NCBI GenBank assembly: GCA_015065765.1
Contig: SVPP01000010.1
Span: forward strand, 12,760-36,759
Length of the DNA: 24,000 nucleotides
From: Oscillospiraceae bacterium
GTDB lineage: Bacteria > Bacillota > Clostridia > Oscillospirales > Acutalibacteraceae
Reading direction: 5' to 3'
Shown: positions 4,588-20,056 of the stretch, in pieces
Layout: each line of letters starts with the position of its first letter
How positions within the stretch are numbered: position 1 is the first letter of the stretch
Notes under the pieces: model-generated
Seen by the model: only the letters and a program-made list of their open reading frames with translations
Database searches by the model: none
Told to the model about the DNA's origin: nothing
Position numbers and translations under genes: made by a program

Positions 4588-5541
4588 TTATTTTTCCTCC
4601 TCTATAATTTTTTCAGATTCCTTCACTGTCATGTTTTTTATCTGGGGTGCAGAAACAAGAGTCATTGCAAAAACAAATGCAAACAAGCAGAAGAAAAAGT
4701 CTGCAATTTCTACGGGACATTCAAGCAAGCCATCTGCTGCAAGAGCTTTGTAGGATGAATCAAAAAGCTGAAGAAGCAGTCCGGGAATTGCTACAACTGC
4801 TGCAAACATTCCACCGATAAGTCCGTAGGAAACAACCTTGTAAGACACACATCTGTTGTTGACCTCAGAAGACATCTGAGCTAAGTACATAAAGAACATC
4901 ATCATAAACGCAATCATGAAAAGTTCAAGGAAAAGTGATGAAACATTCATGAAGCTGATTGTTCTTGTGAAACGCTGAATCATTCTGAAGGTTGCCCAGA
5001 AAAGAGGACAAAGAGAGAAAAATTTCATTTTTGCCATATCTGCGTTTCTCATTCCTGCATATTTAAAAGTAAGAATAATGAAATAAATTGCTGAAAGTAT
5101 TCCGAAAACACCTTCAAGAAGTCTCGGAAGTGCACCTGATTTCATAAGATATGAAAAATGTGTCTGCTCTGCCATAAATGGGTCATAGGAAGCTGACATG
5201 TCAAAGTAAGACTGAACAGATGCTACCGCACCGAACACAAGCAAAATTGCAAAACAGCCTGATGCTACAGAAACAGCAATATTTTTCTTTTCAGGAAGTT
5301 TATCCTGCGGTGCTTTTCCTGAAAGAAGGCAAATCACAAAAATTGCCACTGCGGAAAAGCCTAAAACACCATAAAGAATAGGTGTTGTAATGCTGTTTTC
5401 TGTAAAAAAGCCTGTTTCAAAATCAATAAGACCGCTGAAAGACTGATAAATTCTGATAATAAGCGCAACAATAGTACCTGCAAGTGCTACAAAGAAAGCA
5501 CTTTTCATCTGAAGGTTTTTCGCGCTACCTTTAATTTTCAT
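4588..5541 (-). CDS. Hypothetical polytopic membrane protein
   Basis: 317 aa with about 8 hydrophobic segments. It has an ATG start with a GGTGA RBS and is packed tightly between citrate synthase and the AEC transporter. I recognised no family. Confidence 0.55.
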   Translation of the reverse strand: MKIKGSAKNLQMKSAFFVALAGTIVALIIRIYQSFSGLIDFETGFFTENSITTPILYGVLGFSAVAIFVICLLSGKAPQDKLPEKKNIAVSVASGCFAILLVFGAVASVQSYFDMSASYDPFMAEQTHFSYLMKSGALPRLLEGVFGILSAIYFIILTFKYAGMRNADMAKMKFFSLCPLFWATFRMIQRFTRTISFMNVSSLFLELFMIAFMMMFFMYLAQMSSEVNNRCVSYKVVSYGLIGGMFAAVVAIPGLLLQLFDSSYKALAADGLLECPVEIADFFFCLFAFVFAMTLVSAPQIKNMTVKESEKIIEEEK

Positions 5542-12504: not shown

Positions 12505-12529
12505 AAAAAAAGCCGCCTCTCGGGGCAGC
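12505..12529 (-). terminator. Rho-independent terminator downstream of the retron RT
   Basis: The minus-strand RNA reads GCUGCCCCGAGAGGCGGC, a GC-rich stem with one mismatch (12512-12529), followed by U7 (12505-11). It begins 22 nt after the RT stop. Confidence 0.55.
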
Positions 12530-12551
12530 TTCAATCAGACACTGACTACGG

Positions 12552-13607
12552 TTATGTTTTGTATCTGTCTTCCATAATTCTTTTGCGGGCTTCGGAAAAG
12601 AATCTGTTATCCGGCTCTATCTGCAGAACATAGCTCACTCTGCCCAGAATGCTCAGATAATATTTTTCCTCGTCAACCTGTCCGTCTGAAATAAATTCTT
12701 TGTTTTCCGTAAAAAGAACAGTGTTGACTATGCCGTGCTTGAGAACATAGTAAACCTCCTGACGGAGCTTTCTTTTGTAATCTGACGGCACAGACACCTT
12801 TTCATTGACGGTAAGACCCGTTACTGTCTGACGGTCAGAGCTTGTAATGAATCGGGTTTTCTTTTCATTTACCTCAAAGCCCATTTCCTCAAGAAGAGAT
12901 TTTGACTTTTTAAACACACCATACAAGGGCACATTCCCTGAAAATGTCAGGTCATCGCAATATCGGGTGTAGGAAACCCCTCTTTCCTTGCACCATGTAC
13001 CTATCAGCCTGTCAAACGACGCCATTACTATATTTGAAATTGCAGGTGAAGTTGGTGCTCCCTGAGGGAGAACATCGTCATTGCAGACAAGAGCTGTAAG
13101 CATCACCCCGATCTGACGGGGAAAATATTTTGTATTGAAAACAGCTGAATAAATTCTGTCAAAGCATATGGAGCTGAAAAAGTCTGTAATATCCATTTTC
13201 AGAAGATATTTCTTTCCGCAATGGACAGATGCATTATCATAAATTGTTTTCCTTTTCAGATAAGCGTAGGCGTACTCAGAAACGCTGTAGCAAGAAAGAA
13301 TTCTTCCGGCAATTACGCTCTGTATTCTCTTGAGCTTTGAAGACGGAATAATCAGCGTACGGATGTTTCCGTTTTTCTTAAGGATATTGACAGGTCTGTA
13401 GTGATTGTCAACAGTTTTCACAAGACTGAACAAATCCTTTCTTCCGATACCCAGCAGGTAAGCTAACTGATAAGTGTCGTACACAAAAGGAGTTTTACGC
13501 TCTGAAACATAATCCCCCACCATTCTGAAGGCCTCGGAAATGCCGAATTTTTCAACAAAATGCATGTCACTCTGTTCGAAGGATATATGACCTTTTGTTA
13601 TTTTCAT
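12552..13607 (-). CDS. ret: Retron-type reverse transcriptase
   Basis: 351 aa from ATG 13605-13607, with GGAG at 13617-13620 and a 9-nt spacer. RT motifs are LPQGAPTSP and YCDD (12951-12962). The retron-lineage hallmarks NAxxH (NASVH, 13221-13235) and VTG (RQTVTGLTVNEK, 12816-12824) are both present. There is no maturase/En or other extra domain. An msr-msd-like structured region lies directly upstream on the same strand. Confidence 0.9.
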   Translation of the reverse strand: MKITKGHISFEQSDMHFVEKFGISEAFRMVGDYVSERKTPFVYDTYQLAYLLGIGRKDLFSLVKTVDNHYRPVNILKKNGNIRTLIIPSSKLKRIQSVIAGRILSCYSVSEYAYAYLKRKTIYDNASVHCGKKYLLKMDITDFFSSICFDRIYSAVFNTKYFPRQIGVMLTALVCNDDVLPQGAPTSPAISNIVMASFDRLIGTWCKERGVSYTRYCDDLTFSGNVPLYGVFKKSKSLLEEMGFEVNEKKTRFITSSDRQTVTGLTVNEKVSVPSDYKRKLRQEVYYVLKHGIVNTVLFTENKEFISDGQVDEEKYYLSILGRVSYVLQIEPDNRFFSEARKRIMEDRYKT

Positions 13608-13631
13608 TTTCTGCATCTCCTTTTTATTTAA

Positions 13632-13646
13632 CATACCCCGACAACA
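13632..13646 (-). repeat. Retron inverted repeat, 3' arm (ret-proximal)
   Basis: It is the exact reverse complement of 13813-13827. Confidence 0.8.
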
Positions 13647-13812
13647 CAAAATGTCCGGTAATGAACGAAGACGAATTTCTAATCACGAAGTGATTTCTGA
13701 TTCGGCGTAGTGAAATTATCGGCAAGCGTTTTACTTGTAAAACGCAGTCCCGAGAAAAAATATACAAGACAGCGACTCGCTGCCCCTTCCTGCTTTTGGC
13801 GGGATTGTTCGC

Positions 13813-13827
13813 TGTTGTCGGGGTATG
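13813..13827 (-). repeat. Retron inverted repeat, 5' arm (start of msr)
   Basis: It is the exact reverse complement of 13632-13646. Confidence 0.8.
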
Positions 13828-13832
13828 GTTAA

Positions 13833-13838
13833 ATCATA
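13833..13838 (-). promoter_or_regulatory. Possible -10 box (TATGAT) for the retron transcript
   Basis: TATGAT on the minus strand lies 5-6 nt upstream of the 5' repeat arm, which would put the transcription start at the edge of the repeat. I found no convincing -35. Confidence 0.3.
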
Positions 13839-13870
13839 ACTTAAGCCATGGGGCAAAAACGGTACAGGCC

Positions 13871-13900
13871 AAAAAAAGCGACTGAAACCAGCCGCTTTTT
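13871..13900 (-). terminator. Rho-independent (bidirectional-looking) terminator downstream of the ChbG/YdjC gene
   Basis: The hairpin AGCGACTGAAACCAGCCGCT (13877-13896; 7 bp, one mismatch) is flanked by A7 (13871-13877) and T5 (13896-13900). It lies directly after the stop at 13903 and separates that gene from the retron. Confidence 0.5.
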
Positions 13901-13902
13901 AA

Positions 13903-14775
13903 CTATTTCTTCATTTCAATCATATCTCTGTATGAAATAAGTTCGATGCCGTGAGCATTAAGATGCTGTTCTGTTTTGGGGTCTTTCATAATCTGATATT
14001 CCCACACTCTGTCACGCCATCTTGCTGTAATACCCTTGATTTCGTCGCATTCAACAGAAGGATGAACGTAAGTTTCGCTGAAGCCTGCAGGAATATTCAC
14101 AAGGTCTTCAAGGAACATTTCGCGGTATCTCTCGTAGCTTGTTCTCATTTCGTCATTCCATTTGGGGAAGATGAGATAATCAGGCATAATAACATTATTC
14201 TTTTTGCCGAGATGGTCGCAAATCTTACAAGCAACTGCATAAAGGAAATAAGGTGTACCCTCGGGACATTCCTTTTTGAGAGGCTTTCTGCACATTCTGA
14301 ATGCATAACCAAGTTCACCGCAAAGCTTCATTGTCATGGGAAGAAGCTTGAAGTTACCGCCCTCAATGCCGTAAAGTGAACCCATATGGTTATCAAGATG
14401 TGAGGGTTTCATGCCCATGCTTTCGGCAAGTTTAACCTGCGCAAGAATTTCCTGTCTTGCCTCTTCAAGGTCTGCGTGTTTTGCGAAATCTTCACACTCA
14501 GGCCACATAAAACCTTTTTCGTTTTTAAGTGAAGGAAGGTCTGTAATGGGACCCCAGTTGTAACTGCCCCATTCGCTTGTAGTTGTAAGATGCACACCGA
14601 TTGCATACTGAGGATTGTCAATTGAGAACTGAACTGCCTCTTTTGCAAATTTACAGGGCATCATAATTGTTGAAGATTTAAGTCTGCCTGATTTGAAAAG
14701 GTCCATAACAGCCTCATTTGCCGCACCGCACATGCCGAAGTCATCGGCGTTTATAATAAGATATTTGTCTGCCAC
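13903..14775 (-). CDS. ChbG/YdjC family carbohydrate deacetylase
   Basis: 290 aa with the N-terminus YLIINADDFGMCGAANEAV characteristic of YdjC. The start is GTG at 14773-14775 with a GGGGAG RBS. Confidence 0.85.
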   Translation of the reverse strand: MADKYLIINADDFGMCGAANEAVMDLFKSGRLKSSTIMMPCKFAKEAVQFSIDNPQYAIGVHLTTTSEWGSYNWGPITDLPSLKNEKGFMWPECEDFAKHADLEEARQEILAQVKLAESMGMKPSHLDNHMGSLYGIEGGNFKLLPMTMKLCGELGYAFRMCRKPLKKECPEGTPYFLYAVACKICDHLGKKNNVIMPDYLIFPKWNDEMRTSYERYREMFLEDLVNIPAGFSETYVHPSVECDEIKGITARWRDRVWEYQIMKDPKTEQHLNAHGIELISYRDMIEMKK

Positions 14776-15047: not shown

Positions 15048-16799
15048 TTAGTCGTTATAAAGTGACTTCTTCACATATGATGTGTGGAGGATTTCGTGAG
15101 CCTTGTGGCTTCCGGGTTCTCCGAAGAACTCATCATAAATCATCTTGATTGCGGGGTTATCCTGGCTCTTTCTGAGAGGAAGATTCTTATCTGCCTCATA
15201 GATAGCCTGTGCACGGAGTCCCTTAAGGTCAACGAAGTTACGAACAGATGCGGGCTGGATGGGCTGACCGCCACCGTTTACGCAACCGCCGGGACATGCC
15301 ATGATTTCAATGAAGTGATAATCGCATGTGCCTGCTTTAACCTTTTCCATGATTTCCTGTGCATTCTTAAGACCGCTGACTGCAGCAACCTTGAGTTCTA
15401 CGCCGCCAACTGTGTAAGTTGCTTCCTTGATGCCCTCTGTGCCTCTGACTTCTGTGAAGTCAACGCTTTCAAGTTCTTTGCCTGTAAGAACTTCTGCTGC
15501 GTAACGAAGAGCTGCTTCCATAACGCCGCCTGTTGCACCGAAGATAACGCCTGCGCCTGTGCCTTCACCGAGAGGATTATCAAACTGCTCGTCGGGAAGA
15601 AGGTCGAAGTTGATACCTGCTGTCTTGATCATGCTTGCAAGTTCACGTGTTGTGATTGAATAGTCTACATCAGCAAAGCCTGCTGCTGACTGGTCGTCAC
15701 GTTTGTTTTCGCCCTTCTTAGCTGTACAGGGCATAACTGCAACTACAACAATCTTTGCAGGGTCGATGTTCATCTTCTGAGCATACCATGTCTTCATTAC
15801 TGCACCGAACATCTGCTGAGGTGATTTACAGCTTGAAAGGTTTTCAATCTGCTCGGGGAAGTAGTGCTCACAGTAGTTAACCCAACCGGGTGAACATGAT
15901 GTGATGAGGGGAAGTGCTCCGCCTTCCTTGATTCTGTGGAGAAGTTCTGTACCTTCTTCCATGATTGTAAGGTCAGCTGAGAAGTCTGTATCGAAAACTT
16001 TGTTGAAGCCCAGTCTGTGAAGAGCTGCTGCCATTTTACCTGTTACGTTTGTGCCTACTTTGTAGCCGAAGCACTCACCGAGTGTAACACGGATTGAGGG
16101 AGCTGTGTTAACGATAACGAACTTGTCGGGATCGTTGATTGCATCGAATACTGCCTTTGTATCGTCTTTCTCATAAAGAGCACCTGTAGGACAGTTAACA
16201 ATACACTGACCGCATTCTACGCAAGAATATGATGCAAGACCTTTTTCAAATGCAGAGCCGATATGTGTATCAAAGCCACGTGCATTTGCGCCGATAACGG
16301 AGATTGCCTGATTGTCACAAGCAGCTACGCAGCGACGGCAAAGGATACATTTGTTGTTATCTCTTACCATGTGAGTTGCTGTAGTGTCGATTTCCCATAC
16401 GGGTTTTTCACCGTCGTAACGGCTTTCGTTTTCTACACCATACTCAAGGCAGAGCTTCTGAAGTTCACATGAACCACTTCTTACACAAGAGAGACACTTT
16501 CTGTCATGAGCTGAAAGAAGGAGCTCAAGTGTTGTTCTGCGTGAATCGTGAACCTTCTGTGTGTTTGTAAGGATTTCCATACCCTCGTTAACAGGGAACA
16601 CACATGATGAAACAAGGCGGTTGCCTCTGGGGCCTGCAACCTCAACCATACAGAAACGGCATGCACCGATTTCGTTCATATCCTTAAGGAAGCAAAGTGT
16701 GGGGATTTCGATACCTGCATATCTTGCAGCTTCGAGAATTGAAATTCCGCCGGGCACGCTGAAGGGCATGCCGTTGATTTTAATATTTACCATTTCCAT
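15048..16799 (-). CDS. hydA: [FeFe]-hydrogenase catalytic subunit (HydA of a HydABC/Hnd-type complex)
   Basis: It has an N-terminal 2Fe-2S domain, a His-ligated cluster and two 4Fe-4S motifs. The H-cluster motifs are L2 MPCTAKKGE and L3 EIMACPGGCVNGGGQP, while L1 reads TSCSPGW (see findings). I chose the start ATG 16797-16799, 10 nt after AAAGGAG; the track ORF begins at GTG 16808. Confidence 0.9.
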   Translation of the reverse strand: MEMVNIKINGMPFSVPGGISILEAARYAGIEIPTLCFLKDMNEIGACRFCMVEVAGPRGNRLVSSCVFPVNEGMEILTNTQKVHDSRRTTLELLLSAHDRKCLSCVRSGSCELQKLCLEYGVENESRYDGEKPVWEIDTTATHMVRDNNKCILCRRCVAACDNQAISVIGANARGFDTHIGSAFEKGLASYSCVECGQCIVNCPTGALYEKDDTKAVFDAINDPDKFVIVNTAPSIRVTLGECFGYKVGTNVTGKMAAALHRLGFNKVFDTDFSADLTIMEEGTELLHRIKEGGALPLITSCSPGWVNYCEHYFPEQIENLSSCKSPQQMFGAVMKTWYAQKMNIDPAKIVVVAVMPCTAKKGENKRDDQSAAGFADVDYSITTRELASMIKTAGINFDLLPDEQFDNPLGEGTGAGVIFGATGGVMEAALRYAAEVLTGKELESVDFTEVRGTEGIKEATYTVGGVELKVAAVSGLKNAQEIMEKVKAGTCDYHFIEIMACPGGCVNGGGQPIQPASVRNFVDLKGLRAQAIYEADKNLPLRKSQDNPAIKMIYDEFFGEPGSHKAHEILHTSYVKKSLYND

Positions 16800-16819
16800 T
16801 GTTGGCACACTCCTTTCAA

Positions 16820-18610
16820 TTAGCCTTTAACGATTGCGCCGAACTTACAGTTGGATTCGCAAACGCCGCACTTGATACACTTAGTTGTATCAATAACATG
16901 TGCTTCTTTAACATTACCTGAAATTGCGCCTACGGGGCACTTTCTTGCACAGAGAGTACATCCCTTACACTTATCAGCAATAATTGAGTAGTTGAGAAGT
17001 GCTTTACATACGCCTGCGGGACACTTCTTATCTACAACGTGAGCAATATACTCATCCTTGAAGAATTTAAGTGTTGCAAGAACCGGGTTGGGAGCTGTCT
17101 GGCCGAGACCGCAAAGTGAATTTTCTTTGATATAGTAAGCAAGCTTTTCAATCTCATCAATAGTTTCGAGAGTTGCCTTACCGTCTGTAACCATTTCAAG
17201 GAGCTCTCTGAGTCTCTTTGTACCGATACGGCAGGGAGCACATTTACCGCATGATTCGTCAACTGTGAAGTCGAGGAAGAACTTAGCGATGTCAACCATA
17301 CAGTTGTCTTCGTCCATTACGATAAGACCGCCTGAACCCATCATACAGCCGATTGCTGTAAGGTTATCGTAGTCGATTTCTGTGTCCATAAGAGAAGCGG
17401 GAATACATCCGCCTGAAGGACCACCTGTCTGAGCAGCCTTGAATTTCTTACCGTTAGGTACGCCGCCACCGATATCTTCGATGATTTCGCGAAGTGTTGT
17501 ACCCATGGGGATTTCAACAAGACCTGTGTTCTTGATTTTACCACCAAGAGCGAATACCTTTGTACCTGCTGATTTCTCTGTACCCATTGACTTGAAGAAG
17601 TCTGCGCCGTGGAGAATAATCTGAGGAATGTTTGCAAATGTTTCAACGTTGTTTTCAGTTGTGGGCTTTGCAAAGAGACCTTTTACTGCGGGATAGGGAG
17701 GTCTGGGTCTGGGCTCGCCTCTGTTACCCTCGATTGATGTCATAAGGGCTGTTTCTTCACCGCATACGAATGCACCTGCACCGAGACGGATGAAGAGATC
17801 GAAGTCAAAACCTGAACCGAAGATGTTTTTACCGAGAAGGCCATGCTCTCTTGCCTGGTCGATAGCTATCTGAAGACGTTCAACAGCGATGGGATACTCT
17901 GCACGAACATAAACGTAACCTTCTGTTGCGCCTGTTGCATAACCGCAGATTGCCATAGCTTCGATGATACAGTGGGGGTCACCTTCAAGAACTGAACGGT
18001 CCATGAATGCACCCGGGTCACCTTCGTCAGCGTTACATACAACATATTTCTGATCTGCTGCATTCTTTGATGTGAATTCCCATTTCATACCTGTGGGGAA
18101 TCCGCCACCGCCACGGCCACGAAGTCCTGAATCCTTAACAACCTTGATAACGTCTTCGGGAGTCATTTCTGTCAGACACTTTGCAAGAGCCTGATAGCCG
18201 TCGTAAGCGATATATTCTTCGATGTTTTCGGGGTCGATAACACCGCAGTTACGAAGAGCGATTCTCTTCTGTTTCTTGTAGAAGTTTGTTTCGTTAAGTG
18301 ATTTTACTTCTGCTTCGTTAACAACTGTCTCATCATAGAGAAGACGTGTAACGATACGGCCTTTGAGAAGGTGTTCTTCAACGATTTCGGGAATATCGTC
18401 AACCTTAACTTCGCTGTAGAAGCAGCCTTCGGGATAAACGATCATAATCGGGCCTAATGCGCAAAGTCCGAAACAACCTGTTTTGATAACCTTGATTTCC
18501 TCAGCGAGACCTTTATCAGCTATCTCTTTTTCGAGAGCTTCGATAATTGCACCGCTGTTTGAGGAGGTACAACCGGTACCGCCGCAAACAAGGACATGTG
18601 AACGATACAT
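16820..18610 (-). CDS. hydB: NuoF-like flavoprotein subunit of the hydrogenase (HydB/HndC; FMN/NAD(H)-binding, Fe-S)
   Basis: 596 aa. It has an N-terminal thioredoxin-like 2Fe-2S region, GLRGRGGGGFPTG and CGKCAPCR motifs, and a C-terminal pair of 4Fe-4S ferredoxin motifs. Confidence 0.9.
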   Translation of the reverse strand: MYRSHVLVCGGTGCTSSNSGAIIEALEKEIADKGLAEEIKVIKTGCFGLCALGPIMIVYPEGCFYSEVKVDDIPEIVEEHLLKGRIVTRLLYDETVVNEAEVKSLNETNFYKKQKRIALRNCGVIDPENIEEYIAYDGYQALAKCLTEMTPEDVIKVVKDSGLRGRGGGGFPTGMKWEFTSKNAADQKYVVCNADEGDPGAFMDRSVLEGDPHCIIEAMAICGYATGATEGYVYVRAEYPIAVERLQIAIDQAREHGLLGKNIFGSGFDFDLFIRLGAGAFVCGEETALMTSIEGNRGEPRPRPPYPAVKGLFAKPTTENNVETFANIPQIILHGADFFKSMGTEKSAGTKVFALGGKIKNTGLVEIPMGTTLREIIEDIGGGVPNGKKFKAAQTGGPSGGCIPASLMDTEIDYDNLTAIGCMMGSGGLIVMDEDNCMVDIAKFFLDFTVDESCGKCAPCRIGTKRLRELLEMVTDGKATLETIDEIEKLAYYIKENSLCGLGQTAPNPVLATLKFFKDEYIAHVVDKKCPAGVCKALLNYSIIADKCKGCTLCARKCPVGAISGNVKEAHVIDTTKCIKCGVCESNCKFGAIVKG

Positions 18611-18622
18611 GCTTTTTCCTCC

Positions 18623-19003
18623 TTAGTCTTTAAGTGATGCTACTGTGTATTCAGTAACAGGATTTCCGTTTACAATGTGGTCAGCAACGACTCTTGCGAT
18701 TTTCTCGGGAGTCATTTTGATATAAGTTACTTTTTCTTTGCCGGGAGCAAAAACTTCAACGATGGGCTCATACTGGCACATGCCGATACAGCCTGTCTGA
18801 GAAACAGTAACATTTTTAAGGTTTCTCTTTGAAACCTCTTCAACAAAGCCGTTAAGAACGGGACGAGCACCTGCTGCAATACCGCAAGTTGCCATACCTA
18901 CAACGATTCTTGTAACTTCTGCGCTGCCGTCTGCTGATTCTCTTGTTGTGATGTTTGCCTGAGCTTTTGCTTTGATAGCAAGTAATTCTTCAAGAGTTTT
19001 CAT
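18623..19003 (-). CDS. Thioredoxin-like (2Fe-2S) ferredoxin domain protein (HndB-like)
   Basis: 126 aa with the MATCGIAAGA and CIGMCQYEP Cys pairs. It lies between the HATPase and NuoF-like genes, as in hnd/hyd operons. Confidence 0.75.
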   Translation of the reverse strand: MKTLEELLAIKAKAQANITTRESADGSAEVTRIVVGMATCGIAAGARPVLNGFVEEVSKRNLKNVTVSQTGCIGMCQYEPIVEVFAPGKEKVTYIKMTPEKIARVVADHIVNGNPVTEYTVASLKD

Positions 19004-19555
19004 TTATGTTACACCTCCGCGAATAATCTGGGTTTGTTCGCTGATATAGTCTTTAAGCCACATTCTGACATCAATATCGTTAAAGCTTACTTCTCCGAGA
19101 ATTGCTTTCAGCTCCGAGGTTTTCAGAACGAACTCGTTCTCGTCGATTTTAAAGCGGTAAACAAAATCAATATCTTCATGCATTGTTATCAGCGTAAGAA
19201 TTGTAGCATCAATGTCTCCCAAGGGAGTGAAATCAATGCTGTCTGTTTTGAAATGACCTGAAATGGTAGTACCGACACCAAGCTCGGACTCAAGCTCAAG
19301 ATGTCCGCCTGTCATTTCCGCTGCCATTCTGAACAAGGGAATTCCCATGCCTACTTTTCTTGTAGTTCTTGTGGTACAGAACGGGTCACGCACATTTCTG
19401 AGCATCTCCTCGCTCATTCCCCTGCCGTTATCACGAATTATTACCGAAAGAGTTTTGTCCTCAGTGTTTTCCAGAATATCAATTTCAATCAGACTTGCAC
19501 CTGCAGAAACTGAATTTTCGGTAATATCAAGAATATTAAGTGATAATTCACGCAT
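19004..19555 (-). CDS. Histidine-kinase-like ATPase (HATPase_c) domain protein embedded in the hydrogenase operon
   Basis: 183 aa. It has an N-box (LNILDITENS), G1 (DNGRGM) and G2 (GMGIPL...GG...ELGVGT). I saw no sensor or DHp domain. Confidence 0.7.
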   Translation of the reverse strand: MRELSLNILDITENSVSAGASLIEIDILENTEDKTLSVIIRDNGRGMSEEMLRNVRDPFCTTRTTRKVGMGIPLFRMAAEMTGGHLELESELGVGTTISGHFKTDSIDFTPLGDIDATILTLITMHEDIDFVYRFKIDENEFVLKTSELKAILGEVSFNDIDVRMWLKDYISEQTQIIRGGVT

Positions 19556-19558
19556 AAC

Positions 19559-20056
19559 TTATGCCTGATATTTTGCTACGATACCGGGAATATCCTTTGC
19601 TTCAAGCTTACCGTAAACTTCATCGTTTACTGTAATAACGGGAGCAAGACCGCAAGCACCGATGCAACGGCAGTCTTCAAGAGAGAATTTACCGTCAGGT
19701 GTGCATTCCTTAGCGCCGATTCCGAGAACCTCTTCAAGTTTGTCGATAAGTTCCTGTGCGCCTTTAACGTAACAAGCTGTACCAAGACATACTGAGAAGT
19801 TATATTCGCCCTTAGGTGAAAGAGAGAACTGAGCATAGAATGTTGAAACACCGTAAACCTTTTCAATCGGCACGTTCATTCCGTCAGCGATCATCTTCTG
19901 AACCTCAAAGGGAAGATATCCGTAAATGCCCTGTGCTTCCTGCATTACATGCATGAGAAGACTTTTGTCATGCTTGCTTTCCTCAATAACAGCCATAAGC
20001 TTTGCTTCCTGCTCAGGAGTGCCGTTAAAGGGGTTGTTGCTGATTTTTTTGACCAT
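19559..20056 (-). CDS. hydC: NuoE-like 2Fe-2S subunit of the hydrogenase (HydC/HndA)
   Basis: 165 aa with the motifs VCLGTACYVKG and CIGACGLAPV. It has an AAAGGAGG RBS. Confidence 0.9.
   Translation of the reverse strand: MVKKISNNPFNGTPEQEAKLMAVIEESKHDKSLLMHVMQEAQGIYGYLPFEVQKMIADGMNVPIEKVYGVSTFYAQFSLSPKGEYNFSVCLGTACYVKGAQELIDKLEEVLGIGAKECTPDGKFSLEDCRCIGACGLAPVITVNDEVYGKLEAKDIPGIVAKYQA

What the first reader, a model, noticed from the sequence alone, without database searches (positions are those of the whole stretch)
12505..13870. Compact, complete retron (promoter, msr-msd, RT, terminator) inserted between carbohydrate genes
The 351-aa ORF has the generic RT core (LPQGAPTSP; YCDD at 12951-12962). 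It also has both motifs I know as retron-lineage hallmarks: NAxxH (NASVH, 13221-13235) and VTG (TVTGLTVN, 12816-12824). It lacks maturase, endonuclease or other appended domains. Directly upstream on the same strand, a perfect 15-bp inverted repeat encloses 166 nt of stem-loop-rich non-coding sequence. That is the canonical a1/a2 arrangement of msr-msd. Retrons are anti-phage systems and are poorly sampled in anaerobic gut Clostridia.
Basis: partly seen in the sequence, partly recalled or inferred. Interest (0 to 1): 0.85.

Follow-up and report, generated by a model that had tools for sequence, protein, structure and literature searches.

The report
Stand-alone Ec107-type retron, no effector
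This is a real but ordinary retron: a 1.36-kb cassette of a structured non-coding RNA plus its reverse transcriptase, from the already described Ec107-like family that carries no toxin gene, and it is present in some strains of a gut Clostridia species and absent from others.

Summary
A 351-aa reverse transcriptase (RT; 13607..12552, minus strand) carries LPQGAPTSP, YCDD, NASVH and VTG at the stated coordinates. A perfect 15-bp inverted repeat upstream encloses 166 nt.

- **RT placement:** the best PADLOC profile is RT_Ec107-like (375 bits; next is RT_III-A at 310). The RT is 39% identical to E. coli Ec107 RT. It groups with Ec107 (97.5% NJ bootstrap), outside the PRTase-linked type III-A RTs. 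The best structural matches are all retron RTs.
- **ncRNA conservation:** all 90 close homologue loci have the same RNA upstream. 42 of 56 pairs show compensatory changes, and the G after arm a1 is invariant. A covariance model built only from the Clostridial RNAs also finds the validated Ec107 msr-msd.

Strains with an identical YdjC protein have an empty site, which sets the insertion at 13870..12512, just after the ydjC terminator. The insertion contains only the RNA, the RT and a terminator.

No effector is present, so it is not a complete tripartite defence retron. What it does beyond making msDNA is not known. This effector-less clade is already described, including its abundance in gut Bacillota. 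Verdict: a new member of a known kind, of modest interest.

The parts
12512..13870 (-). The inserted cassette, 1359 bp. It is absent from empty-site alleles and bounded by T-runs at 13877-13871 and 12511-12505.
   Evidence: Comparison with the empty sites L164-L173, and with the filled sister allele L175.
13833..13838 (-). -10-like box TATGAT of the presumed retron promoter. The -35 is poor.
   Evidence: Read from the sequence. The same position is TATAAT in L175, and relatives have sigma-70-like promoters 5-15 nt upstream of a1. The consensus scan did not call it.
13813..13832 (-). a1, the 5' arm of the inverted repeat. The perfect 15 bp are 13827-13813.
   Evidence: 15 of the 16 a1/a2 pairs show compensatory changes across 23 non-redundant relatives, with 95.9% of cells paired.
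13812..13812 (-). Candidate branching guanosine, whose 2'-OH would prime msDNA synthesis. It lies in an invariant A-G immediately 3' of a1.
   Evidence: A17 and G18 are invariant in alignment A2. The same AGCG context aligns in the Ec107 ncRNA. The priming role is inferred, not shown.
13788..13804 (-). msr hairpin 1.
   Evidence: 5 pairs, all with compensatory changes, 91% paired.
13766..13786 (-). msr hairpin 2, GGGGCAGCGAGTCGCTGTCTT. The core GCGAGTCG is invariant.
   Evidence: Invariant columns. 9 pairs, 97% paired. The hairpin is also present in Ec107 and in other enterobacterial relatives.
13726..13745 (-). Hairpin 3, GCGTTTTAC/GTAAAACGC, probably the start of the msd template region.
   Evidence: Perfect 9-bp inverted repeat (I5) that is also part of the minimum-energy fold. 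Family support is weak in this alignment, at 63% paired.
13672..13704 (-). msd stem-loop, CGAATCAGAAATCAC-TTC-GTGATTAGAAATTCG.
   Evidence: The outer stem is 98% paired and the inner stem 88% paired, both with compensatory changes.
13627..13646 (-). a2, the 3' arm of the inverted repeat.
13627..13832 (-). The whole msr-msd non-coding RNA gene. It is the only match to the family covariance model in the window.
   Evidence: Covariance model R1 scores 147.9 bits, E = 2.6e-39.
12552..13607 (-). Retron reverse transcriptase, 351 aa, with a YCDD catalytic box, NASVH (region X) and VTG (region Y).
   Evidence: dN/dS is 0.14 against the sister allele.
12505..12532 (-). Terminator-like hairpin plus T7 run that ends the cassette.
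   Evidence: The hairpin is absent from the empty site, whereas the T-run and the downstream TTGACA promoter are host sequence.
13871..13900 (-). Host ydjC terminator hairpin plus T-run. It is not part of the insertion and marks the insertion point.
   Evidence: Inverted repeat I2. It is homologous to the terminator hairpin of the empty site and of L175.

Best explanation
This is a stand-alone retron of the Ec107 (Retron-Eco5, RT clade 2) family. It is a 1.36-kb cassette that holds only an msr-msd RNA gene, its RT and a terminator. It sits just after the ydjC terminator in some strains of a gut Clostridia species.

**Shown:**
- The RT belongs to the Ec107 clade.
- The RNA is homologous to the experimentally validated Ec107 msr-msd and covaries across the family.
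- The cassette is a presence/absence polymorphism.
- The RT is under purifying selection.
- No effector gene lies in the cassette or recurs beside its relatives.

**Inferred, by analogy with Ec107 and solved retrons:**
- A weak promoter of its own gives one transcript that starts near 13829.
- Arms a1 and a2 pair, and the RT binds the two conserved msr hairpins.
- The RT primes on the 2'-OH of G13812.
- It copies roughly 105-115 nt of msd template from about 13647 back to about 13755-13760. The product would be a branched multicopy single-stranded DNA.

**Not established:** what the msDNA-RT complex does next. My best guess is that it is a sensing module whose output depends on a partner encoded elsewhere, or on the complex itself, rather than a self-contained abortive-infection system.
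For: **RT classification**
- RT_Ec107-like is the top PADLOC model for this RT (375 bits, against 310 for RT_III-A). It is also the top model for Ec107 itself and for four relatives.
- The RT is 39% identical to Ec107 RT over 285 aa, E = 3e-79.
- It has a YCDD box, as Ec107 does (PMC6868368).
- In an NJ tree of 92 RTs, the window's clade joins the Ec107 side with 97.5% bootstrap. All PRTase-linked RTs fall outside.
- The AlphaFold model has pLDDT 90.8, and its 18 best PDB fold matches are all retron RTs.

**RNA**
- An inverted repeat sits at the same position but with different sequence in about 20 RT lineages.
- 83.7% of cells are paired, against 71.5% in shuffles (0 of 500 reach it) and 39-47% in slid controls. 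42 of 56 pairs have compensatory changes.
- Model R1 hits directly upstream of the RT in all 90 close loci, and in no empty site.
- R1 also hits E. coli Ec107 between pyrE and its RT, at 30.3 bits, E about 1e-7.

**Insertion**
- At least ten contigs with a 100% identical YdjC protein have ydjC, then 95 nt, then the DUF386 gene, with no RT. The junctions are given.

**No effector**
- The cassette has no other ORF of 60 aa or more.
- The flanking genes are host genes also present at the empty site.
- Neighbours of the 20 lineages differ from one another.
- No retron effector family was found among 25 other window proteins.
- The published description of this branch is the same (PMC7736814; the SPIRE preprint).

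**Selection**
- RT dN/dS is 0.14.
Against: - No msDNA has been observed. The branch point, the msDNA length and the transcript start are all inferred.
- The promoter is weak by consensus, and the scan did not call it.
- Two of the seven drawn helices, hairpin 3 and the basal msd stem, are poorly supported in the alignment, at 63% and 38% paired.
- NCBIfam's retron_St85_RT model scores 226.9 bits, just under its 235-bit cut-off. Rfam has no matching family.
- With no effector, the usual defence mechanism cannot be assigned. A trans partner is pure conjecture from a 24-kb window.
Confidence: 0.85

Rival explanations
1. It is a complete anti-phage retron whose effector is one of the adjacent genes, either the DUF386/YhcH-like gene downstream or the YdjC deacetylase upstream.
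For: The DUF386 gene lies on the same strand, 105 nt after the RT. Retron effectors are usually adjacent.
Against: Both genes are present and adjacent, with their own terminator and TTGACA-16-TATAGT promoter, in strains that lack the retron. Neither matches any PADLOC model. Neither recurs next to the RT in the other 19 lineages.
Confidence: 0.03
2. It is a degenerating remnant of a type III-A (PRTase plus winged-helix) retron that lost its effector and is now inert or merely selfish.
For: PRTase-linked type III-A RTs are the nearest effector-bearing relatives in the sample. Mestre et al. suggest the Ec107 branch lost its associated protein (PMC7736814).
Against: The RT is intact and under purifying selection, with dN/dS 0.14 at dS 1.2. 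The RNA keeps its pairing through compensatory changes. The effector-less clade is large, with 1863 homologues at E <= 0.001. It also holds at least 63 effector-less RTs in the tree. The cassette has its own promoter and terminator in most lineages.
Confidence: 0.1
3. It is another kind of bacterial RT element: a group II intron, a DGR, an Abi or UG/DRT defence RT, or a CRISPR-associated RT.
For: All of these share the RVT_1 core.
Against: The group II intron model scores 73 bits against a 300-bit cut-off, and the Drt2, Drt3a and Drt4 models score 54 bits or less. There is no maturase, endonuclease or other appended domain. Intron, DGR and DRT folds match at TM about 0.5, against 0.63-0.73 for retron RTs. 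The retron-specific NAxxH and VTG motifs are invariant in the family.
Confidence: 0.01

Closest known systems
Retron-Eco5 (Ec107) of E. coli, and the 'clade 2 Ec107-like' stand-alone retrons (Mestre et al. 2020, PMC7736814; SPIRE survey preprint 10.64898/2026.05.14.725207)
   Same: - Both share the same best RT profile.
- The RTs are 39% identical and group in one clade.
- Both have a YCDD box.
- The msr-msd RNAs are homologous: a1, the invariant A-G, two msr hairpins including GCGAGUCGC, the msd stem and a2.
- Both are cassettes of about 1.3-1.4 kb holding only the RNA and the RT, with no associated protein.
- Both lie in an intergenic spot at a palindromic terminator, with no mobility genes.
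- Both are present in only some strains. Ec107 is in 382 of 5426 E. coli genomes.
   Different: - The window's RT belongs to a separate, well-supported subclade (99.5% bootstrap) found in gut Clostridia.
- It is 351 aa rather than 319 aa. The extra roughly 30-55 N-terminal residues have no counterpart in Ec107. Part of that stretch (residues 34-55) aligns to the type III-A profile.
- Ec107 is reported to replace a 34-bp palindrome. Here the host terminator hairpin is kept and the cassette sits just after its T-run.
Type III-A retrons (RT plus PRTase-like effector plus winged-helix protein)
   Same: RT_III-A is the second-best RT profile (310 bits). The RT length and N-terminal region are similar. 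The RNA lies upstream of the RT.
   Different: There is no PRTase or winged-helix gene here or in any relative with 37% or higher identity. Those genes appear only beside RTs with 36% or lower identity, which fall outside the clade.
Retron-Eco1 (Ec86), type II-A, the best-studied solved retron
   Same: It is the closest solved structure by sequence (E = 6e-35) and by fold (E = 1e-21). The a1 / branching G / a2 layout is the same.
   Different: Sequence identity in the structural alignment is 26%. Ec86 works with an NDT-like effector that the msDNA-RT complex restrains, and no such gene is present here.

Membership tests
Retron (general) | [quoted passage not shown] | tested here: met
   NASVH is residues 125-129, VTG is 262-264 and YCDD is 216-219. 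N125, A126, H129, T263 and G264 are invariant in 34 homologues.
Retron (general) | RT groups with retron RTs rather than with group II intron, DGR, Abi or UG/DRT RTs. | tested here: met
   PADLOC, NCBIfam, PDB sequence search and fold search all agree.
Retron (general) | Structured non-coding RNA directly upstream on the same strand, closed by the a1/a2 inverted repeats. | tested here: met
   It is conserved with covariation in about 20 lineages. The covariance model hits all 90 close loci.
Retron (general) | Conserved guanosine next to the a1/a2 stem that serves as the 2'-5' branch point. | tested here: inconclusive
   A G at 13812 is invariant in the expected place and aligns with the corresponding AGCG in Ec107. 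Its chemistry cannot be tested here.
Retron (general) | Production of branched multicopy single-stranded DNA. | not testable with these tools
   This needs expression and gel or sequencing analysis.
Tripartite defence retron (types I-XIII) | An associated effector gene, or an effector domain fused to the RT. | tested here: not met
   The RT has only RVT_1. The cassette defined by the empty site holds no other gene. No neighbour is shared across lineages. No effector family was found in the window.
Ec107-like / RT clade 2 stand-alone retrons | RT matches the Ec107-like profile best and is monophyletic with Ec107 RT. | tested here: met
   375 bits against 310 for the next model. 97.5% NJ bootstrap for the joint clade. 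The tree is distance-based on the loci fetched, not on the full reference set.
Ec107-like / RT clade 2 stand-alone retrons | ncRNA of the Ec107 structural type. | tested here: met
   A model built only from Clostridial RNAs finds the Ec107 msr-msd full length at 30.3 bits, E about 1e-7. It also finds the RNAs of Yokenella, Pseudocitrobacter and Leminorella relatives.
Ec107-like / RT clade 2 stand-alone retrons | No recurrent accessory gene, and an intergenic insertion without mobility genes. | tested here: met
   in agreement with PMC7736814 and PMC6868368.
Type III-A retron | PRTase-like gene, with or without a winged-helix protein, next to the RT. | tested here: not met
   These genes are absent here and in all relatives with 37% or higher identity. 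They are present upstream of 12 more distant RTs.

The most novel reading that the evidence does not exclude
Ec107-like retrons may be self-sufficient two-part systems. In this reading the RT-msDNA complex itself, or a housekeeping host partner, gives the biological effect without any dedicated toxin. The msd segment would be the specificity module that is swapped between alleles. Hints for this are that the msd is identical between two alleles whose RTs differ by 27% in protein at saturated synonymous sites, and that L144 carries the msd of one lineage in the backbone of another. The natural filled and empty alleles of one species would then allow a direct test of what an effector-less retron does.
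Probability: 0.2. Interest if true: 0.7.

Novelty: new member of a known kind. Interest (0 to 1): 0.3.

Why it matters
How retrons without an effector work is an open question, raised by Mestre et al. 2020. This locus does not answer it.

It does give a clean natural experiment. The same species, with an identical flanking protein, exists with and without a 1.36-kb cassette that holds nothing but the RNA and the RT. The family is also very common in gut Bacillota. As a compact RT/ncRNA pair from an anaerobe, it may be of practical use as a DNA-producing module.

Tried and rejected
- **Rfam:** no match at gathering thresholds over the whole window. A permissive search of 13500-13950 gave only chance hits. 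Rfam appears to have no model for this RNA.
- **Effector search:** Pfam and PADLOC on same-strand neighbours in ten relatives gave unrelated proteins. They were a WYL regulator, an FtsK-gamma protein, FemAB, Sel1 repeats, an AAA-M41/IetA-like protein and a PDDEXK_4 nuclease. PADLOC on 25 other window proteins gave only three weak, unrelated hits.
- **First junction reading:** I first read the junction as replacement of a 32-nt palindrome, as in Ec107. The sister allele L175 showed that the hairpin is the diverged host terminator and that the cassette lies after its T-run.
- **Other YdjC homologues:** those at 96, 92, 84 and 76% identity lie in different gene orders and have no retron, so they say nothing about the age of the insertion.
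- **Composition:** the cassette is 41.9% G+C and the flanks 42-45%, so there is no foreign-DNA signal.
- **Phage and plasmid collections:** the only close hit is one 4.7-kb faecal virome contig at 50% identity, which is not evidence of phage carriage.
- **Ec107 papers:** the 1992 and 1996 papers are not held. The Ec107 RNA and DNA lengths used for the msDNA estimate come from my own memory.
- **Recurrent unknown neighbour family:** it has no match in Pfam, PADLOC, NCBIfam or the PDB.

Full report
**1. What is in the sequence**

On the minus strand, an ATG at 13607 opens a 351-codon frame that ends at 12552, with GGAG 10-13 nt upstream. The protein has LPQGAPTSP (residues 180-188), YCDD (216-219), NASVH (125-129) and VTG (262-264). 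Pfam sees one RVT_1 domain and nothing else.

Upstream, the perfect arms CATACCCCGACAACA and TGTTGTCGGGGTATG (15 bp) enclose 166 nt. The pairing extends to 20 nt at 90% complementarity, 13832-13813 with 13646-13627. The region folds at -73 kcal/mol, z = -5.9 against dinucleotide shuffles.

A hairpin plus T-run follows the RT at 12532-12505. The scan calls no promoter before a1. The strong TTGACA-16-TATAGT at 12503-12476 lies downstream of the RT and belongs to the next host gene.

**2. Which RT it is**

- **Profiles.** The best PADLOC model is RT_Ec107-like (375 bits, E = 8e-113), followed by RT_III-A (310 bits). The fused types XI, XII and I-C score lower.
- **Other RT classes.** The NCBIfam retron models score 200-227 bits. 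The group II intron model scores 73 bits and the Drt models 54 bits or less.
- **Solved structures.** The closest by sequence is the Ec86 RT. An AlphaFold model (pLDDT 90.8) has retron RTs as its 18 best PDB matches. Group II intron, DGR and DRT enzymes match clearly worse.
- **Ec107 itself.** I fetched the real Ec107 from E. coli. It lies between pyrE and slmA, its RT is 319 aa, and it is present in 382 of 5426 complete genomes. The two RTs are 39% identical over 285 aa. Both have YCDD, which the Simon et al. review notes as an Ec107 peculiarity (PMC6868368).
- **Tree.** I built an NJ tree of 92 RTs from the fetched loci. The window RT with 21 relatives forms a clade (99.5% of 200 bootstraps). 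That clade joins the Ec107-containing group with 97.5% support.
- **Sister groups.** All 12 RTs that have a PRTase_III-A gene upstream (plus a small gene that in L057 matches WH_III-A) lie outside this joint clade.

**3. The RNA**

The genome and metagenome scans gave 80 loci each. In about 20 RT lineages (85% identity clusters), an inverted repeat lies at the same distance from the start codon. Its spacer is about 130-190 nt, mostly 160-180, and the arm sequences differ between lineages.

In an alignment of 23 non-redundant RNAs, the A-G right after a1 is invariant, and so is the core GCGAGTCG of the second hairpin. RNAalifold predicts a1/a2 and two msr hairpins, and 22 of its 30 pairs show compensatory changes.

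I added the msd stems by hand and counted pairs.

| Measure | Value |
|---|---|
| Cells paired, observed | 83.7% |
| Cells paired, shuffled | 71.5% (0 of 500 reach the observed value) |
| Cells paired, slid controls | 39-47% |
| a1/a2 | 96% paired |
| msr hairpin 1 | 91% paired |
| msr hairpin 2 | 97% paired |
| msd outer stem | 98% paired |
| msd inner stem | 88% paired |
| Hairpin 3 | 63% paired |
| Basal msd stem | 38% paired |

Hairpin 3 and the basal msd stem are not supported in this alignment.

A covariance model built from these RNAs behaves as follows:
- It finds one site in the window, 13627-13832 on the minus strand, at 148 bits.
- It finds a full-length match directly upstream of the RT in all 90 close loci. 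It finds none in the empty sites.
- It finds matches upstream of many distant relatives.
- It finds the validated Ec107 msr-msd at 30.3 bits, E about 1e-7. The same AGCG branch context and GCGAGUCGC hairpin align there.

Rfam has nothing comparable.

**4. The insertion**

The same element with the same flanks occurs in two JGI metagenomes. The flanking YdjC protein is found 100% identical on 21 contigs. All ten places shown carry ydjC, 95 nt of spacer and the DUF386 gene, with no RT.

Comparing the empty allele, the filled allele and a second filled allele places the cassette right after the T-run of the ydjC terminator. The second filled allele is L175, whose RT is 74% identical. The inserted segment is 13870..12512 (1359 bp) and has a T7 run on each side, where the empty site has one T6 run.

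The cassette holds only the -10-like box, the RNA, the RT and a terminator. Its G+C content matches the flanks. Relatives have recognisable sigma-70-type promoters 5-15 nt before a1. Here only TATGAT is present, and L175 has TATAAT at the same position.

**5. No effector**

- The cassette has no second ORF of 60 aa or more.
- The adjacent genes are host genes.
- Neighbours in the 20 lineages are unrelated to each other.
- No retron effector family is found among the other 25 proteins of the window.

This matches the literature. Mestre et al. describe stand-alone (msr-msd)-RT cassettes in the Ec107 branch of clade 2, and they leave open whether these act with unknown effectors in trans or have another role (PMC7736814). 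A 2026 SPIRE survey reports 'clade2_Ec107like' as its second most abundant group: 192 members, 93% Bacillota, 91% host-associated, with no recurrent accessory module.

**6. How it most likely works**

*Shown:* family membership, RNA homology and covariation, the presence/absence polymorphism, and purifying selection on the RT (dN/dS 0.14 at dS 1.2).

*Inferred from Ec107 and the solved retrons:*
- One transcript starts near 13829.
- Arms a1 and a2 pair, and the RT binds the msr hairpins.
- The RT primes at the 2'-OH of G13812.
- It copies about 105-115 nt of msd.

The length estimate rests on my recollection that Ec107 has a 75-nt RNA branched at its 18th residue and a 107-nt DNA.

*Unknown:* the downstream function.

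**7. Verdict**

The element is a new member of a known, effector-less family, so it is neither a complete defence system nor a poorly sampled novelty. Interest is modest. Its main value is the clean filled/empty allele pair, together with hints of msd-module exchange.

Noticed in passing
window 13647-13812 compared with L175:184-386; also L144, L143 and L135 (about 4783-4984 in each): The msd part of the RNA evolves out of step with the RT. Between the window and L175, the last roughly 160 nt of the RNA are identical. Their RTs are only 73% identical in protein (dS 1.2), and the flanking genes have dS of 0.7-1.0. L144 matches L143 at 94-100% everywhere except the msd region, where it is 85% identical to L143 and 95% to L135. 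This looks like exchange of msd modules between alleles.
   Followed up: partly
L091:5773-6453, L130:7071-7856, L124:2578-3255: An uncharacterised protein family of 225-261 aa recurs near the RT in 3 of 20 lineages. In L091 it starts 3 nt after the RT stop. In two of the lineages a Sel1-repeat protein is also present. It has no match in Pfam, PADLOC, NCBIfam or the PDB. It could be a subclade-specific accessory gene or just a defence-island neighbour.
   Followed up: partly
L003:7121-8134 and L009:7065-8129: A WYL/WCX-domain regulator lies 33-44 nt downstream of the RT on the same strand in two separate lineages. It also lies a few genes away in a third lineage.
   Followed up: partly
window 13752-13786 (minus strand): The invariant msr hairpin 2, followed by a U-rich run, is flagged as terminator-like. 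Whether it attenuates transcription into the msd and RT is unknown. The U-run is not consistently present in relatives.
   Followed up: no
L057, L061, L064-L068, L070, L071, L074, L080, L081 (upstream of the RT in each): More distant RT relatives (36% identity or less) carry a conserved upstream gene family, usually followed by a small gene. In L057 the two match PRTase_III-A and WH_III-A, the type III-A retron layout. They make a useful outgroup for the effector-less clade.
   Followed up: yes
window 15048-20056 (minus strand): An operon for a multimeric [FeFe]-hydrogenase: a HydA-like large subunit, a NuoF-like 51K subunit, 2Fe-2S thioredoxin-like subunits and a histidine-kinase-like ATPase. 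DRTGG and PHP domain genes lie next to it.
   Followed up: no
phage collection record MT838960.1 (4715 bp, human faecal virome): This record encodes an RT 50% identical to the window's over 99% of its length. A short virome contig is not proof that phages carry this retron.
   Followed up: no
L084:2847-4127: An AAA ATPase with a peptidase M41-like C-terminus, matching PADLOC IetA, lies just upstream of one relative's retron. This suggests that some family members sit in defence islands.
   Followed up: no
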